Shown piece after piece: positions 326 to 64,000 of a stretch of 64,000 nt of DNA. The position numbers and the translations under genes were made by a program. Location: the NCBI GenBank assembly GCA_964016885.1, contig OZ024754.1:26722001-26786000 (forward strand), written 5' to 3'. The notes below the pieces were generated by a model. That model was not told where the DNA came from. It saw nothing but the letters and a program-made list of their open reading frames with translations, and did not search any database. The stretch comes from Eledone cirrhosa (lineage: Eukaryota). Position 1 is the first letter of the stretch, and the number at the start of each line of letters is the position of its first letter.

Positions 326-704
326 TATATATATATATATATATATATACATACACACACACCCACATATATATATTTGATCGAATTTCTCTCAAAAGAT
401 TATTCAATTGATTCGTTAAACCTTAGTTCACCAACATGCTGTAACCAGAATCATTAACTTCCTGTGCTCTCTCTCGCCCCCCCCCTCTCTCTCTCTCTCT
501 CTATATATATATATATATATATATTTTCCACAGAGCAGCGCGTGTGTGTAAGTGGGGGGTATGTCGGTAACAGCTGAGAGAATGGAGTACCCAATACTGA
601 AGTAGAGTTTAAATATTCATTATATTAAGGCTAGAAAGTGAGTTTTATTACTTTGGAGTTTTGCTTGTTTATCACAGGGTCATCAGACAGAACAAGACAG
701 ACTT

Positions 705-752
705 CTTGTCTGATGACCCTGTGATAAACAGGCAAAACTACAGGGTAACAAG
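705..752 (+). ncRNA. Degenerate hammerhead (GAAA to AAAA) inside fold-back 612-785
   Basis: cttgt-CTGATGA-c cctgt gataa acagg c-AAAA-ctacaggg-TA-acaag. Confidence 0.55.
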
Positions 753-797
753 ACTCACTTTCTAGCCTTAATACAATGAATATATATATATATATAT

Positions 798-1468
798 TCT
801 GAATCATTGAGCACTTTTCGCACATCTCGGAGGTTGTTTTTCGTTATTTCGTGGGCCGAAATGCGAATCTCAATAATTTATGTTTGTATTTATCTCCAGA
901 CTCTAGCTATTGACCAGTTAATTTTCTTGATTTTTTAGTTGATTCTATTGACTGATGAATAGCTTATGTTAATTTTAACCCTTCTGTTGAGAACTCTATT
1001 CGATTTGTGATGTTTTTGCATTCTTGCAAGAATATACACAACTGAATTCATTCGCCAGATATAGGGGTTGCCTCCCTTACCGATCCCCAAGTGGGGTCGG
1101 CAATAGTCAGTCCTTGTATTAACATTGAACTAAAACCTGTTGAGAAAGTGGCTTCCTTGTTCAATCATCTTACCATAAGCCTGACATTATATATGTAAGC
1201 GGACGGTACTTGATTTAGGAGCCGCAGAAACCCATATACTGGATTTTACCAACCTTCCAGGGGTCCGGGTAAATTTTCAATACCCGAATTACTTGATCGT
1301 TTTTTTGGCTATGCGAATGATTGTTTAACCATCGTCTCAGTGTGTTTGGCCTTTAACGTTTGTTATAGCTCTGGTTCTTCTGAATCATTGAGCACTTGCC
1401 GCACATCTCGGAGGTTGTTTTTCGTTATTTCGTGGGCCGAAATGCGAATCTCGATAATTTATGTTTGT
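798..1468 (-). mobile_element. Decayed Penelope-like fragment bounded by ~90-bp direct repeats
   Basis: 798-887 repeated at 1378-1468; minus strand KHHKSNRVLNRRVKINISYSS resembles the RYNKNFNRNLVKISYSC motif. Confidence 0.5.
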
Positions 1469-2929
1469 TTATATATATATATATATATATTTAAAAAAAT
1501 AGAGGTGTAACACACGAGTTGTGATAGGAAAAGAAAATGCTGACAAATTTTTCCCAGTGAAAAATAGTTTAATTAGGAATAAGTATAAATTAGTAATATG
1601 TATTGGTTAGTATTCAGTTTTAGTTTTACGTTTTTACCGGTTGCGCATTTCTAATGCTTTTCAAAAACAATTTTGAGATAGAGCGCTCGTGATGTTTGGT
1701 CTATTAAAGCTACAACATACCCGCTCAGGCTAAGAACGAAAGACTTGCTGAAGAAGTAAATCCTATGTTCTGTCGTCAAAACCATTATATTGCAGACTCC
1801 TGCAATAGGAATTTGTCGATCTTGGATTTGCAGGAACTTAGCGCTGATATTGAGTGCTATATGTGATCTGCATGGTTGATATACAATGTAAGTTATATAT
1901 TTTGCACTCGGCCTCACCGCTACGTCCGGGTCAGTATAAAATCTTTTCCTGGGTCCTGTATTTTCGTTGCTCGAGTGATGCGGCTGGACTGCCGACCGCT
2001 ATATCTCAGTTGCTAAGCTGTCTGAACAAAATGTTATTACTCTGGGGTCTTTCCTCATCTGAGTGCTCAAGCTACAGACCGATTATGCATATACGCTAGC
2101 TTGTCCGTATTCTAAAGCTTCGTCAATGGTGTACTAAAATTTATATATATATACCAATGAAGGTTGGAAAATCACTGATGAAGGATTATTTTTATCATAT
2201 GTAACCCATGTGCAACCACGCAGTATTCATTCTTCTCATGTTTATATATATATATATATATATATATATATATATATATATATATATATATATATATATA
2301 TAATAATAATAATAATAAGGGTTGACGGACCCAGCATATTTATCAATGCCAGTACCGGTTGTAGCAAAAGTCAGCGCACTAGGCAAAACTACAGAGTAAT
2401 ATATAATGTGTAGATCCCGAGTAAAATGAGGAATAACCACAGTAAGTAAGATATTCAATACATTAGTAGAGTATGAACATCATTTAATATAGATATGGCT
2501 TCTACATGATTCTACATTCGTATGGAATCATGAGGAATGCATTCAATTCTGATGATTTCATATGAATGAAACAGTTCTAGTCATGTAGAAGCCATTTCTA
2601 TATTGCATATATATATATATATATATATTGTATGTAGGAAAGATCGACTTTCGTCAAATCGGACCGAGGGAACAATGTTTCCGTTGGTCTTTCCAATTGC
2701 TAATACTATCTATCGGTCGCAACTCCAGGTAGAAGGAGCAACGTGAAATAAAGTGTCTTGCTCAAGGACATAACGCATCGCTTGGTCCAGGAATCGAACT
2801 CACAACCTTACGATTGCGAATCCAATTCTCTAACCACTCAGCCACACGCCTTCACTATTGTATATATATATATATTGTATATATATATATATTGTATATA
2901 CATATATATATATATTGTATATATATATC

Positions 2930-4160
2930 TATCTATCTAAGGCGGGTAAAATTCCCGAGATCCATGGACGAGTTCTCTCCAGCGGTCTCTGTCCCTCATT
3001 ATCGCTGCCATGTCCTGCGTCTCCAACAGACCAGTGTCTGTCATTAGGGCATCAACATACGTTAACCTTGGTCTTCCTCTTCTAGTGTGTCCATGTAGGG
3101 GCTCCCAAAGGAGCACTGAGTGCAATGTCAACTCTGGATCCAGCCTGAGATGGAGAAGAAGCTCAGGGACAACCAGAACGGCTTCAGAGAGGGTAGATCA
3201 ACCACCAGTCACATCCTGATGCTGAGGAGGATATTAGAGGGAGCTAGAGCAAAGTGCCTTCCTGCGGTCATGGTTTTCATTGGCTTTAGGAAGGCCTTTG
3301 ATTCTGTGGAGCGTTACTGCCTGATGAAGATCTTACAGGCTTATGGAATCCCCAAGAAGATAGTGGACCTGATATCACTGCTCTACACCAACACCAAAGC
3401 CCGAGTCATTACACCTGATGGGATGACAGAGTTCTTTGAGATACTGGCTGGAGTGCTCCAGGGAGATACATTAGCTCCCTACCTTTTTATCATCGTAGTG
3501 GACTATTGTATGCGCCTTGCACTGGAGAAACACCAGGACTCTGACTTTACTGTAGCACCGGCTCAGAGCAGGAGAGTTAGGGCGAAAAAGGTATCGGATG
3601 CTGAATTTTCCGACGACATAGTTTTGGTGACAAATAAAGTGAAGGAGGCAGAGGATTTGATGCGGGAGGTTGAGACTGTGTCGATGAGTGTGGGGCTGAG
3701 AATGAATGAGACTAAAACAAAATATCTGGTAGAGAATGTTGAGAAGCCAGAGGGGATCACTAATATAGGCGGGAAGCCGCTAGAATTGGTTGAGGGCTTC
3801 CTGTATTTGGGAGCAAAGATTGGGAATACGGAAGATGATGTGGTTGAGAGGAAGAGCAAGGCCTGGGCGGCGTGCCACAGCTTGAGATCGGTGTGGAAGT
3901 CGGACCTTCGTAGAGACCTGAAAGTCCGCCTCTTCATTGCTGTAGTGGAGTCTGTGCTGGTGTATGGGTCTGAGACTTGGACACTGACCAAGAAACTCAC
4001 TCAGATGGTGGATGGGTGCTACACGAGAATGTTGAGGATGGCTCTGAACATTAATCAGTATACACTGAGGATGAAAAACTCAGAGGTGTATGGGAGCCTC
4101 CCAAAAGTCAGCTCAAAAGTGACACAGTGGAGACTGAGGTTAGCTGGACATGCTCCAGAG
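2930..4160. mobile_element. RTE-clade LINE with 5' inversion (twin-priming structure)
   Basis: 3' end (PELTLHSVLLWEP..RGRPRLT..DRDRWR) on minus 2937-3140 with a TAGA tail; RT (QNGFR, AFDSV, GVLQGD, FSDD) on plus 3133-4160 ending LAGHAPE. Confidence 0.9.
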
Positions 4161-62148: not shown

Positions 62149-62237
62149 TGTATGTATGTATATATGGATGAATACATGCATGTATGCATGTATGTATGTA
62201 TATATGTATGTATATATGTATGTATATATGTATATAT

Positions 62238-62635
62238 CCGGGAGAGATGACCCCTTAGCCTTTGTCAAGGCAGAATTCTAGAAGAAGGAAAACTCTGATA
62301 TAACACCTGCAACCCTGATGGTATCCAATGATGTTGACTTGTTCTTTTTTTTGGTAAATATCATCTTGGTTAAGAGAGTGGGACTGGCTTTGTGCAGTGC
62401 CTTTGCTCACTATAAAAGCTTCACGGCACAGGCATTGCTTTATATCTGGAGATCTCTCTGCACTTGTCGTCACATAGTACCAAGGGCCCAGCACTATGTG
62501 TCAATAATTGTCACAAGTGTAGTGTTTGTACCAGAGTTTTCAAGTCGCTGGCTGGACTAAAATGTCACACTCGTTCAGCGCATCGGTAGGGATATAAAGT
62601 AGTGGCCGTACTCGAAAACGAGTTGGCAGCCACCA
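62238..62635 (+). mobile_element. Non-autonomous bipartite derivative of the adjacent RTE (5'UTR segment fused to 3' end)
   Basis: Near-identical to 59029-59255 joined at about 62468 to 61968-62148. Confidence 0.9.
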
Positions 62636-62784
62636 TATATGTATATATGTATGTAGGTATATATGTATATATGTATTATGTATGTATGTATGCATATATG
62701 TATGTATATATGTATTATGTATGTATCTATGCATATATGTATGTATATATGTATGTATGGATATATTGTTTTTTTTTTTTACAG

Positions 62785-63038
62785 ACCAATATTCATAAAA
62801 ACGCATCAATGTTCGTAGAACCTATTGTAACGCGTAAAACCCCGTCTCTGGCCCACGGGGAAGCCAAGAGAATAGTGACTGAGGTTTATTTCACTCCAGA
62901 AACGTTTCAAAGAATGAAATTCCAAACGAGGCTCAACACAGTTGGAATTGGTGAAATCTGTAATTACACAATCCTGTATGCTGGAATCAACTTACCTTGT
63001 ATAGATAAATATACAGTGCCGACAACAAATACTTCAAA
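62785..63038 (+). CDS. Exon 16: repeat domain 6, first part (gene continues beyond window)
   Basis: (t)n-acag|TNIHKNAS...GEICNYTILYAGINLPC...TNTS|gtaagt; phase 0 to 2. Confidence 0.88.
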
Positions 63039-63820
63039 GTAAGTCACATTCTTATAACCTTACACACACACACACACATATATATATAGTAATAATAATT
63101 ATGAAGACTAAAATCCGAAGAGGGCTCGTTATATATATATATAGGAGAAAGTATGACCCCGACGGCAGAGCTCAAGCCGTTTCGACGGCTATTTCTGGAC
63201 TAAAGTGAGAGTTGTTTTAGTCTGGTAAATAAATAGCCGAACTTTTCAAGGGTACTTCCTTATATGGGAAGATTGTAGTTGTCAAGGGGATTGGTCAAAA
63301 ATGTGTAGCAGACACAGAAAAGTCTATCATGGCAGTGGGTGTGGGGATGGCTGAACTTGCCTGTAGAACGATAGGTGAGTAGGTAGAGCCGGTCAAGCGT
63401 AGAAGGTGAAATCTACGCGGCAAATTCTAAGGAATGTGTATGAAAGTAGGCCATATATATATATATCCCGTCTAACCCATACTAGCGTGGAAGGTAGACG
63501 TTAAACGATGATGATGATGATGATGATGATGATATATATATATATATATATATATATATATATATATATATATATATATATATATACAGAAATATCTACA
63601 GTTAGTTATGGGGTCTAGTCTGCATGAAGAACTCAATGTAATCCATATGTTGATAATGTTATAGGTTAAAATAAATCCCGGAAAACAAAAAAATCATCAA
63701 AATCATCAAAATCATCAAAAGGAAAACAGAGTCATAATATAAGTTAAAACAATGAAATAAAAATTCAAGTCATTAGGAAATAACGTCACTGCTTTACGAT
63801 CGTTTCTAGGTGATAATAAT

Positions 63821-64000
63821 ACATCGTACGCATATTTCGTTATCGATCTATGTAAGGTTAGTTACAAAATATCAGATAAGGAGAATATTTACTTACTTGT
63901 ATATCATCAGCTGATGATATACAAGTAGGTAAATATTCTCCTTATCTGATATTTTGTAACTAACCTTACATAGATCGATAACGAAATATGCGTATGATGT
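63821..64000. repeat. Spacerless palindrome (runs off window end)
   Basis: Apex catcag|ctgatg at 63910/63911. Confidence 0.9.

What the first reader, a model, noticed from the sequence alone, without database searches (positions are those of the whole stretch)
612..64000. Many independent families of ribozyme-carrying, one-tailed fold-back elements inserted in (TA)n
Seen: at least 12 insertions share one architecture despite largely unrelated sequence. Each has inverted arms, usually with one arm extended by an unpaired ~35-150 nt tail, and microsatellite flanks. Examples are 612-785, 9434-9745, 9776-13795, 22233-22425, 24566-28140, 34205-34620, 38248-38602, 38674-38920, 40457-40830, 41210-41700, 43400-43750, 51280-51510 and 63821-64000. 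Many contain a minimal type I hammerhead. The two largest retain Penelope GIY-YIG coding sequence and share tails with small non-coding ones (28085-28140 with 41640-41698; 13721-13795 with 51440-51505). Known: Penelope-like elements carry minimal hammerheads in pLTRs and can insert with an inverted 5' pLTR. Inference: this is a dense ecosystem of microsatellite-targeting Penelope insertions and retrozyme-like mini-elements that a normal annotation would miss or mislabel as MITEs.
Basis: partly seen in the sequence, partly recalled or inferred. Interest (0 to 1): 0.8.

Follow-up and report, generated by a model that had tools for sequence, protein, structure and literature searches.

The report
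Twin hairpins explain Penelope one-tailed fold-backs
The mirror-image inserts are real, cut-down head-to-head copies of Penelope-type jumping genes in TA repeats, a known pattern, but in the commonest group here the short and long ends fall just before the first and second of two small conserved hairpins, which likely mark where the element's enzyme starts copying on each DNA strand.

Summary
Observation confirmed and enlarged: about 22 Penelope-like (PLE) insertions cover 22% of the window; 18 arm-bearing fold-backs with both ends visible have exactly one tail. Hammerheads are enriched (15 versus 0.42 in shuffles) but intact in only 5 of the 13 listed examples, and the arms would pair and bury them. 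The architecture is published (Arkhipova 2013, Craig 2021), and this scan met it before in other genomes. Most minis are 5'-truncated stubs of Hydra-clade PLEs, built anew at each insertion, not retrozyme families. New here: a bulged hairpin lies a few bases beyond the tailless end. In 78 related Hydra loci it occurs on the sense strand only (50 versus 0), doubled at the element's 5' end in 19 of 31 families, and 10 of 13 mapped 3' ends lie 0-4 bases before hairpin 1 or hairpin 2. The tail therefore equals the hairpin spacing, likely two enzyme start sites, one per target strand. A tRNA-headed repeat and a retrozyme-type unit also carry the PLE insertion signature. Nothing was tested at the bench.

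The parts
523..780 (.). Fold-back A, Hydra-type stub: arms 610-692 and 703-786, tail 523-609, decayed hammerhead on each arm
586..608 (-). Tail hairpin H1 of A, 3-4 nt beyond the tailless end
1368..1396 (+). Tail hairpin of a further Hydra-type family (tail runs to (TA)n at about 1470; a second copy at 798-887)
2310..2606 (.). Fold-back B: arms 2486-2538 and 2546-2604, 176-nt tail on the left with degenerate hairpins at 2472 and 2397; U.U-type hammerhead; relatives at 20322, 41757, 42485
4460..4545 (-). Solo tail between (TA)n tracts, starting with the hairpin (4543-4516)
9433..9744 (.). Fold-back D: identical 71-nt arms, 149-nt tail on the right, only the 3' half of a hammerhead in the centre
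9776..13795 (.). Fold-back E, Hydra-clade PLE: short inverted arm on the left; long arm with endonuclease remnant, two same-strand hammerhead copies (cores 12169 decayed, 13636 intact) and 71-nt tail
11350..11748 (+). C-terminal GIY-YIG endonuclease of Hydra type (CxxC before the conserved E, CxH after the N, no CCHH)
13629..13688 (+). Complete type I hammerhead (stem I 7 bp, stem II 11 bp); mirror copy at 9809-9868 (-)
13730..13753 (+). Tail hairpin H1 of E, 5 nt beyond the tailless end
13836..14030 (-). Further hairpin-bearing insertion between (TA)n tracts (hairpin 13936-13907); relatives at 1941-2090 and 44042-44151
14985..17110 (-). Decayed Hydra-clade PLE: RT and endonuclease remnants, hammerhead 15007-15080; holds a nested hairpin-bearing tail near 15345-15430
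17580..17890 (.). Bipartite insertion Y (family of D): tail-only left half, right half with hammerhead and tailless end; halves do not overlap
22233..22428 (.). Fold-back F: 55-nt arms, 79-nt tail on the left with hairpin 22306-22280; no intact hammerhead; very high-copy family
22453..22641 (.). Fold-back G, F subfamily, tail on the right, hairpin broken by a TA tract
22677..22994 (.). Fold-back H: 89-nt arms, 47-nt tail on the left, (TA)n at both ends; the long arm begins with a tRNA-like head
22824..22896 (-). tRNA-like head of H (Rfam tRNA 37.3 bits, gathering 29; A-box and B-box-like motifs); ARAGORN calls no gene
23003..23300 (+). Retrozyme-type unit (family S), one copy with decayed canonical hammerhead at 23189
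24566..28139 (.). Fold-back I: 1754-nt arms with 2 mismatches, 11-nt spacer, 55-nt tail on the right; hammerheads at 24823 (-) and 27827 (+)
26331..27542 (+). 5'-truncated PLE reading frame (end of RT, short C-x4-C-x2-C-x7-C linker, GIY-YIG with CCHH); mirror copy 25108-26319 (-)
33281..33691 (.). Fold-back of the F subfamily with a longer 5' part: tail 33281-33362, hairpin 33353-33327, right arm ends about 70 nt upstream of the usual tailless site
33723..33916 (.). Fold-back K, 97% identical to F, centre differs by 2 nt; hairpin 33795-33769
34205..34625 (.). Fold-back L: 193-nt arms, 31-nt tail, U.U-type (Hydra) hammerhead on both arms
36826..37443 (.). Bipartite insertion P2 (family of P): short tail-only left half, long right half with endonuclease trace and tailless end
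38246..38603 (.). Fold-back M: 146-nt arms, 62-nt tail, U3-A8 core hammerhead on both arms; solo relatives at 35056, 1485, 20452, 50420
38674..38920 (.). Fold-back N: 89-nt arms, 62-nt tail with degenerate hairpin, U.U-type hammerhead on both arms
40457..40831 (.). Fold-back O: 121-nt arms, 126-nt tail with hairpin-like start, no hammerhead
41212..41697 (.). Fold-back P: 195-nt arms, 58-nt tail shared with I, near-intact hammerhead on the left arm
43388..43750 (.). Fold-back Q: 128-nt arms, 29-nt tail, minimal hammerhead with one core change at 43560 (-)
43807..43886 (.). Bipartite insertion F3: about 26 nt of tail joined over a 4-nt microhomology to a tailless F arm
48125..48540 (.). Family S pair: left copy longer than one unit (33-nt terminal redundancy, hammerhead deleted), right copy broken
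51248..51510 (.). Fold-back R, Hydra-type stub: 87-nt arms, tail shared with E, hairpin 51447-51470; no (TA)n flank
51617..52085 (.). Family S fold-back: short tailed arm (39-nt tail), long tailless arm of nearly one unit with canonical type I hammerhead (core 51925)
63143..63240 (.). F-family fold-back with broken right arm
63821..64000 (.). Fold-back T: perfect centre at the first base of a hammerhead core; cut by the window end

Best explanation
The fold-backs are dead, 5'-truncated insertions of Penelope-like retrotransposons, mostly of the Hydra clade, each likely made by two separate reverse-transcription starts, one on each strand of a nicked (TA)n target, with the two cDNAs likely joined head to head where they stopped. 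In Hydra elements the RNA carries two tandem bulged hairpins (H1, H2) between the hammerhead and the start codon; the tailless end maps just 5' of H1 and the tailed end just 5' of H2 (shown by sequence), so the tail is the H1-H2 interval. Inferred: each hairpin binds one subunit of an RT-endonuclease dimer and fixes its start point, which is why every insertion has exactly one tail. The hammerhead is a passenger of the PLE 3' end, kept when truncation falls upstream of it, and is predicted to be buried in the arm-arm duplex. Some non-coding RNAs (an F family with the hairpin, a tRNA-headed repeat, a retrozyme-type unit) are inferred to borrow PLE enzymes.
For: Architecture: 18 of 18 arm-bearing fold-backs with both ends judged have one tail, none is symmetric; all 5 hammerhead pairs point outward. 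Two templated strands: the tailless half holds sequence absent from the tailed half in Y, F3, P2 and S, the reverse in D, E, F, H, K, Q, R and 33281; reads and contigs of other F copies show many different junctions, and 3522 raw reads leave the F arm for (TA)n at the tailless site. Hydra clade: protein motifs match the published alignment by eye; U.U-closed hammerheads are in 14 of 25 Hydra families of Craig's File S2. Hairpin: 9 exact hits in the window against 0 in 100 shuffles, 3 of them not used to write the pattern; 3-7 nt beyond the tailless end in A, E, F, K and, degenerate, in N, O, D; exact matches at the ends of 3 of the 6 new Hydra consensus sequences of Craig 2021. With the pattern fixed beforehand, 78 Hydra loci give 50 sense against 0 antisense hits outside the ORF; doubled in 19 of 31 families, 55-74 nt apart, 12-39 nt before the ATG; 10 of 13 true 3' ends lie 0-4 nt before H1 (4) or H2 (6); the free first upper pair is paired in 38 of 38 hairpins as C-G or T-A. 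Literature: a Poseidon PLE nicks and extends both strands, starts at two internal RNA sites that bound the tail, is predicted to be a dimer, and does not need its hammerhead in vitro (PMC11167929).
Against: No binding, priming or cleavage was tested. H2 cannot be seen in the window's own tails (by the model it is not copied), so the H2 rule rests on relatives from other animals. Window tails reach 176 nt, beyond the 55-74 nt spacing seen in relatives, and B runs past a degenerate second hairpin. Exceptions exist: 3 of 13 mapped ends miss both hairpins (L025, L046, L067), 44042 ends inside the hairpin, the right arm of 33281 ends about 70 nt early, R starts at the hairpin base, B 13 nt before it. 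Three of the 10 fitting ends come from one family. 5 of 31 families show no hairpin and 12 no twin under the pattern; beyond the first upper pair the stem is often unpaired (9-15 of 19). The relaxed pattern was written after seeing the loci. I, P, M, H, S, L and Q lack the exact hairpin, so the rule is not shown for them. The hairpins also sit just before the start codon, so another role is possible. The centres of the window's own fold-backs were not shown to be bridged by reads.
Confidence: 0.7

Rival explanations
1. Same elements, but the hairpins act in DNA: the endonuclease recognises them in the cDNA or an intermediate and cuts just 5' of them, so the two ends are cleavage or resolution sites and not RT start sites.
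For: Craig 2021 ascribes the tail to endonuclease-mediated resolution; Frangieh 2024 cites the tail as needed for endonuclease recognition in D. virilis Penelope. The end mapping cannot tell a start from a cut.
Against: In the one reconstituted PLE the two tail boundaries are RT start sites on RNA. The motif is strand-specific, has a one-sided bulge and tolerates G.U, which suits a single strand; 15 of 16 tailless ends examined end in 1-5 nt of T/A alternation shared with the flank, as priming on (TA)n would give.
Confidence: 0.14
2. Self-priming or snap-back: one cDNA folds back at its truncated end and copies itself, giving the inverted arm; the hairpin stops the copy short of the tail.
For: Proposed for Adineta Penelope from palindromes at inverted junctions (PMC3846280 passages). 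Several centres here are near-perfect palindromes with 0-11 nt spacers; arms of one insertion are closer to each other than to other copies (M 96% against 84%, P 92% against 79%).
Against: Snap-back cannot put into the tailless arm sequence that the tailed arm lacks, yet Y, F3, P2 and S do so, and reads show such junctions in other F copies.
Confidence: 0.07
3. The small fold-backs are independent non-autonomous families (retrozyme-like or MITE-like) that move as fold-back units and use their paired ribozymes.
For: F and K share nearly the same centre and 97% identity; the F family is extremely abundant in contigs and reads; family S is non-coding with a canonical hammerhead.
Against: Junctions vary among copies; ends are asymmetric, unlike terminal inverted repeats; the two hammerheads lie on opposite strands and are predicted to be buried; only 5 of 13 keep an intact motif; P, R and D-type minis continue into coding or longer copies.
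Confidence: 0.06
4. The inverted arms are assembly or library artefacts (fold-back chimeras).
For: No listed contig piece was seen to bridge a centre in 22150-24050 (63378 pieces not shown); two arm pairs are 99.9-100% identical.
Against: Most arm pairs differ by 2-15% with ordinary transition-rich changes; ends stop at biologically fixed sites with (TA)n; raw reads of an unrelated study show the same tailless end; the same build is published.
Confidence: 0.03

Closest known systems
Hydra-clade Penelope-like elements (Craig, Yushenova, Rodriguez, Arkhipova 2021, PMC8557442; includes Hydra-1_Obim)
   Same: C-terminal GIY-YIG without CCHH, matching RT and linker motifs by eye, (TA)n targets, hammerhead near the 3' end often closed by U.U, inverted 5'-truncated partner, one-sided tail.
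   Different: The paper's main text has no word on hairpins or stem-loops although the motif is in its consensus sequences; tails here are 29-176 nt against the 30-40 bp stated; many more families than the one octopus Hydra family listed.
PLE insertion build: inverted pLTR plus optional tail (Arkhipova 2013, PMC3846280; Craig 2021 Fig. 2)
   Same: Head-to-head 5'-truncated copies, tail at one end, microhomology joints.
   Different: Non-overlapping bipartite insertions here argue against the self-priming model offered in 2013; strict one-tail rule (18 of 18).
Poseidon element PAc of Anolis in vitro (Frangieh 2024, PMC11167929)
   Same: Two internal starts bounding the tail, AT-rich target, both strands extended, hammerhead dispensable, predicted dimer.
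   Different: There the starts lie in one AC-rich stem-loop inside the ORF; in Hydra they lie before two repeated hairpins in the 5' untranslated part. No repeated signal was reported there in the parts I read.
Minimal hammerheads of PLEs (Cervera and de la Pena 2014, PMC4209133)
   Same: Minimal type I motifs, U3-A8 variant, palindromic stem III, pairs on opposite strands 100-700 bp apart, read as truncated PLEs.
   Different: Nothing of substance; the window's motifs fall within the published variants.
Non-LTR retrozymes (Cervera and de la Pena 2020, PMC7229834; Li, Clavereau, Pollet 2026 preprint)
   Same: Family S: non-coding unit of about 330 nt, canonical type I hammerhead, terminal redundancy as from a tandem or circular template.
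   Different: No copy here has two hammerheads in tandem; one copy shows the PLE signature (inverted arm, 39-nt tail, (TA)n), a line of evidence for PLE mobilisation that the passages read do not give.
tRNA-derived SINEs (and Pol III-headed TRIMs, Kojima 2024, PMC10886601)
   Same: Element H has a tRNA-like head with A and B box-like motifs, a short body, many copies.
   Different: It is inserted as a one-tailed fold-back in (TA)n, unlike 8 ordinary SINE-like copies in the window; one copy only, helper unknown.

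Membership tests
Endonuclease-bearing PLE | RT followed by C-terminal GIY-YIG endonuclease | tested here: met
   26331-27542, 11350-11748, 14985-17110; all 5'-truncated or broken; Pfam gives no hit
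Endonuclease-bearing PLE | 5' truncation with adjacent inverted truncated copy and one-sided tail | tested here: met
   18 of 18 judged fold-backs
Endonuclease-bearing PLE | Type I hammerhead on the sense strand near the 3' end | tested here: met
   15 hits against 0.42; sense to the ORF in E, I and 14985; intact in 5 of the 13 listed
Endonuclease-bearing PLE | RT phylogeny within PLEs | not tested
   No named reference proteins could be loaded; motifs compared by eye only
Endonuclease-bearing PLE | Target-site duplication | tested here: inconclusive
   Cannot be read inside (TA)n; Craig 2021 notes the same
Hydra clade | No CCHH; CxxC before conserved E and CxH after N; modified linker; divergent RT4 | tested here: met
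   E and 14985 element against section 11 and the supplement alignment
Hydra clade | (TA)n insertion | tested here: met
   16 of 22 insertions have (TA)n of 6 nt or more at both ends with my boundaries
Hydra clade (non-coding stubs A, B, D/Y, F, L, N, O, R) | Continuity with a Hydra ORF in this genome | not testable with these tools
   No genome held; assigned by tail hairpin or U.U hammerhead, R also by tail shared with E
Nematis or Neptune clade (element I) | CX2-5CxxC linker and CCHH | tested here: met
   Both present; short linker spacing resembles Nematis rows, 49259 remnant resembles Neptune rows; clade not fixed by a tree
Non-LTR retrozyme (family S) | Canonical type I hammerhead in a short non-coding unit | tested here: met
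   Core 51925, stem I 6 bp with one mismatch, stem II 4 bp, palindromic stem III; longest stop-free frame 77 aa
Non-LTR retrozyme (family S) | Tandem units with two or more hammerheads | tested here: not met
   Only monomer-sized copies with terminal redundancy in the window; rest of genome not available
Non-LTR retrozyme (family S) | Self-cleavage and circular RNA | not testable with these tools
   Needs bench work or RNA reads
Non-LTR retrozyme (other minis) | Same-strand tandem units | tested here: not met
   Hammerhead pairs are on opposite strands
tRNA-derived SINE (element H) | tRNA-like head with Pol III boxes, multi-copy head plus body | tested here: met
   Rfam 37.3 bits; boxes; another copy spans arm and head, 22722-22880
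tRNA-derived SINE (element H) | LINE-type 3' end and target-site duplication | tested here: not met
   One-tailed fold-back in (TA)n instead
tRNA-derived SINE (F family) | tRNA-like head | tested here: inconclusive
   B-box-like motif at 22513, but no Rfam hit at 33380-33520 and weak likeness to the window's SINE (10 of 300 shuffles as good)
MITE | Symmetric terminal inverted repeats with a fixed interior | tested here: not met
   Ends asymmetric, interiors vary between copies

The most novel reading that the evidence does not exclude
Hydra-clade Penelope proteins bind as a dimer to two tandem RNA hairpins on one transcript, and each subunit primes on one strand of the (TA)n target, so every insertion is an obligate one-tailed head-to-head pair whose tail length is set by the hairpin spacing; any RNA with the hairpins, including a non-coding family that is among the most abundant repeats of this genome, and also tRNA-headed SINE-like and retrozyme RNAs, is moved by Penelope enzymes.
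Probability: 0.45. Interest if true: 0.8.

Novelty: new variant of a known kind. Interest (0 to 1): 0.6.

Why it matters
How Penelope-like elements make their inverted copies and one-sided tails is stated as open in Craig 2021 and only partly answered by Frangieh 2024. A conserved pair of hairpins that marks both ends turns this into a simple bench test (move a hairpin, the tail should move) and offers a 25-base tag that assigns non-coding repeats to their helper clade. It would also let repeat annotation of such genomes reclassify many short palindromes and unknown repeats as PLE products, and it adds insertion-site evidence that PLE enzymes move retrozyme-type and tRNA-headed RNAs.

Tried and rejected
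No whole genome is held, so family sizes and autonomous partners in this genome were not counted. Rfam did not show a hammerhead family; its microRNA hits are generic hairpins below threshold. Pfam had no match for the four PLE fragments. Word-based protein searches with the Hydra endonuclease and a host exon found nothing; the HMMER search did. The organism was not established by any search. No RNA holder listed; this says nothing on expression. An F-family pattern found 0 metagenome contigs and 15 viral contigs that I took for chance 16-mer matches and did not use. Hydra relatives were not found in viral or prokaryote collections. The U.U-closed hammerhead looked like a new variant but is standard in Hydra. 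A U3-A8 hammerhead read into 63143-63260 was dropped: the apparent stem is a fold-back. ADAR-type bias between arms was not seen (35 A/G against 32 C/T differences). A tight pile of truncation points just upstream of the hammerhead, noted in another genome, is not seen here (0 to 40 nt). F as a tRNA SINE: inconclusive. MAFFT alignments of the hairpin did not register the stems, so pair counts come from end-anchored scripts. Left out of the one-tail count as not judgeable: 8646-8735, 63821, 63143, 48125, 58696, and 44463-44639 (opposite geometry). Literature searches that found no account of the twin hairpins or of a PLE-inserted tRNA SINE: and the in-paper search 84; subscription journals, Repbase reports, Arkhipova 2006 and Lunse 2017 (not held) were not seen, nor the supplements of the 2026 preprint.

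Full report
Setting. The window is animal DNA, 36-40% GC, 18% microsatellite by my mask. Exon-like stretches of a + strand gene run from about 7140 to 63040, one with a weak cadherin match. The repeat landscape looks like an octopus genome; that is my recall and no call established it. No whole genome is held.

1. The observation. Self-BLAST of the masked window and arm alignments confirm inverted arms at all 13 listed places and add more. With boundaries set by hand, 22 insertions cover 21.7% of the window. Arm identity over 19 pairs runs from 85% to 100%, with transition-rich differences. Of the arm-bearing fold-backs whose two outer ends can be judged, 18 of 18 have exactly one tail (29-176 nt) and none is symmetric; six inverted repeats were left out as cut, broken or of other geometry (listed under Tried and rejected). 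16 of 22 have (TA)n of at least 6 nt at both ends, against 1.2% of unmasked positions. The first example begins at 523. Ten hits are outward-pointing pairs in 5 of the 13 listed elements; four elements hold decayed motifs, two half motifs, two none. Both shared tails are confirmed.

2. What the coding remnants are. 26331-27542 has 96 relatives at 29-53% identity, nearly all unnamed. It carries a C-x4-C-x2-C linker and CCHH; the short spacing to the next cysteine matches the Nematis rows of Craig's Figure S2, while the remnant at 49259-49642 matches the Neptune rows. 11350-11748 has 3980 relatives, is read as GIY-YIG by the Atlas, and shows the Hydra pattern. The decayed element at 14985-17110 matches the Hydra alignment by eye, including Hydra-1_Obim. 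These are motif comparisons; no tree was built.

3. The build is known. Craig 2021 (PMC8557442; I read sections 6 and 11, passages, and supplement parts 2, 53, 54 of 59 plus searches) describes the inverted 5'-truncated copy, a 30-40 bp tail at one end, (TA)n targets and hammerheads in Hydra. Arkhipova 2013 (PMC3846280, passages) describes the same and proposes self-priming. Cervera 2014 (PMC4209133, parts 1-3 of 4 and supplement parts 1-2 of 3) reports minimal hammerhead pairs on opposite strands 100-700 bp apart and the U3-A8 core seen in M. The U.U-closed core of L, N, B and Y is in 14 of 25 Hydra families of Craig's File S2 and in 12 of 46 related loci with a hammerhead. Earlier notes of this scan record the same pattern in other genomes.

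4. The fold-back is made at insertion, from two templated strands. Copies of one family differ at the centre. Laying contigs and reads on 22150-24050 (4 of 8 listed runs) shows F-family joints at many places (22268, 22284, 22318, 22329 to 22373-22534) and 3522 raw reads of an unrelated study that leave the arm for (TA)n at 22312, the tailless site. In Y, F3, P2 and S the tailless half holds sequence that the tailed half lacks; in D, E, F, H, K, Q, R and 33281 the tailed half is the longer. One cDNA copying itself cannot give both. F3 joins about 26 nt of tail to a tailless arm over 4 matching bases. 15 of 16 tailless ends examined end in 1-5 nt of T/A alternation shared with the flank. Frangieh 2024 (PMC11167929, parts 1-2 of 4) showed for a Poseidon element nicking and extension of both strands, two internal starts that bound the tail, a predicted dimer, and no need for hammerhead cleavage. 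If each arm chose its start freely, at most half of the pairs would have one tail; 18 of 18 points to coupling (inference).

5. The twin hairpin. Tails of unrelated families share a short structure: four paired bases (RCTC with GAGY), a two-base bulge on the 3' side, a variable upper stem-loop, then RCT. A descriptor written from six tails gives 9 exact hits in the window and none in 100 shuffles; three hits (1368, 4543, 13936) were new and each lies in a (TA)n-flanked insertion. It starts 3-7 nt beyond the tailless end in A, E, F and K, at the end itself in R, 13 nt beyond in B. By eye it stands, exact, at the 3' ends of Hydra-2_Amil and Hydra-2_Ajap and at the 5' start of Hydra-1_Ajap, and nearly so in Hydra-1_Crog; the paper's main text has no 'hairpin' or 'stem-loop'. 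For an independent test I fetched the best 78 of 361 Hydra-type loci from metagenome contigs (50 families at 80% identity). With the descriptor unchanged and one deviation allowed: 19 sense and 0 antisense hits in 40 kb downstream of the ORF, 31 and 0 in 92 kb upstream, 1 and 2 in 102 kb of ORF; it lies 37-57 nt after the hammerhead cleavage site in 13 of 34 loci with enough sequence. Reading these loci showed two copies in a row. A relaxed pattern, written after that, gives 122 sense against 4 antisense hits outside ORFs; among 31 families with enough upstream DNA 26 have at least one hairpin at the element's 5' end and 19 have two, 55-74 nt apart, the second 12-39 nt before the ATG. Mapping 3' ends on the 5' region of the same family gave 23 alignments: 5 stop at a contig end, 5 run on into a tandem copy, and of the other 13, four end 2-3 nt before H1, six end 0-4 nt before H2, and three fit neither. 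The ten come from 8 families. The first pair above the bulge is free in the pattern, yet pairs in 38 of 38 hairpins, 28 as C-G and 10 as T-A (permutation chance 1e-5 for H1 alone, relatedness not corrected); the next two pairs hold in only 9-15 of 19.

6. Mechanism. Shown: the order hammerhead, H1, H2, start codon; the two ends before H1 and H2; one tail per insertion; two separately templated halves. Inferred: a tandem or read-through transcript carries this block at its 3' part; the protein binds each hairpin, nicks both strands of (TA)n, and primes a few bases 5' of each hairpin with help from short TA pairing; both cDNAs run towards the element's 5' end, stop early, and are joined at microhomology. 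The half started at H2 copies H1 and is the tailed arm. Whether both subunits read one RNA or two is open; arms of one insertion are closer to each other than to other copies. The main rival is that the hairpins are cut sites in DNA. Against a strict rule: longer tails in this genome, B passing a degenerate second hairpin, and several off-site ends.

7. The ribozymes. In six fold-backs folded on both strands the arms pair into long duplexes (-115 to -292 kcal/mol) that take up the hammerhead (prediction). Paired motifs lie on opposite strands and cannot form the same-strand dimer that minimal hammerheads need (Cervera 2014). Only E has two same-strand copies, one decayed. They are best read as passengers.

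8. Non-coding passengers. Family S (23003, 48125, 48983, 51617) is a unit of about 330 nt with terminal redundancy, no long frame and a canonical hammerhead, like the retrozymes of Cervera 2020 (PMC7229834, passages), where PLEs are named as candidate helpers, and of the 2026 preprint (part 1 of 5 and passages; supplements closed). The copy at 51617-52085 has the PLE signature. No tandem pair of hammerheads is present, so membership is not met in this window. Element H has a tRNA-like head and another copy spans head and arm; eight ordinary SINE-like copies in the window show no (TA)n flanks at both ends and no inverted partner. One copy is thin evidence, and a template switch at insertion is not excluded. 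The F family carries H1, has no intact hammerhead, and reaches a summed depth of 4e6 in run X1 against about 7 at a single-copy exon, and 3.6e3 against 24 in a second organism (the tool warns that this is no copy number). Its 5' end is unknown. A 2026 repeat annotation of Octopus vulgaris (PMC13282606, parts 1-2 of 3) lists Penelope-like families without clades or ribozymes in the parts read.

9. Artefact check. Centres in 22150-24050 were not seen bridged (reduced-representation reads end at 22365, most pieces not shown). Divergent arms, fixed ends and the published build make an artefact unlikely.

10. Verdict. The finding as written is a dense, real example of a known product. The twin hairpin that marks both ends in the Hydra clade was not found in the ten searches and the papers read, with the gaps named above. 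It makes the origin of the PLE tail directly testable. Novelty: new variant of a known kind. Interest 0.6.

Noticed in passing
window 7140-63040 (+): About 14 exon-like stretches of a secreted protein with a weak cadherin match at 20870-21133 and repeated unnamed domains; nearly all fold-backs lie in its introns, so its pre-mRNA is predicted to form many long duplexes, possible editing or small-RNA substrates (recalled: coleoids edit RNA heavily).
   Followed up: partly
window 53964-57488 (-): Intact-looking 1174-aa RT reading frame with a C-terminal zinc and restriction-like region, a non-LTR element unrelated to the finding.
   Followed up: no
window 59641-62088 (+) and 3120-4253 (+): RTE-like non-LTR remnants; the first ends in C2H2 zinc fingers and in a repeat also found at 17987-18353 and 62273-62628.
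   Followed up: no
window 19354, 28847, 30168, 31771, 32509, 8317: Abundant tRNA-type SINE family with B box, ordinary flanks; used as a control.
   Followed up: partly
window 48983-50260 (-): Neptune-type PLE remnant whose 3' part runs straight into 46 nt of the S-family tail and then (CA)n; may link the retrozyme-type family to a Neptune helper or be a nested insertion.
   Followed up: partly
window 29030-29890 (-): Decayed relative of element I (about 40% amino-acid identity), no inverted partner seen.
   Followed up: partly
window 24215-24250 (-), 23430-23458 (-), 46417-46502 (-): Family of solo minimal hammerheads of the classic extra-A, G-C type, one intact.
   Followed up: partly
window 1485-1700, 20452-20700, 35056-35265, 38246-38603, 50420-50620: M-type ends share a different short stem-loop about 5 nt beyond the tailless end; may be the same kind of signal in another lineage.
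   Followed up: partly
window 44463-44639: Inverted arms facing a central (TA)n run, the opposite geometry to the PLE fold-backs; unexplained.
   Followed up: no
window 22312-22520, 33420, 33860, 43835, 63195: Nine F-family arms start within about 12 nt of one another, a strong stop or joining hotspot, though 2090 reads carry further upstream sequence.
   Followed up: partly
window 9980-13520: The 1.4-kb stretch between the two same-strand hammerheads of E is almost all (CA)/(TA)-type repeat and was copied into both arms.
   Followed up: no
window 52590-53280 and 18877-19260: Minisatellites of about 26 nt and about 51 nt.
   Followed up: no
window 23622-23813: Very high-copy repeat shared by both organisms, not part of the finding.
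   Followed up: no
L016-L093: Only 10 of 78 loci show an inverted repeat of 40 nt or more within the contig; short-read contigs probably break at the inverted arm.
   Followed up: partly
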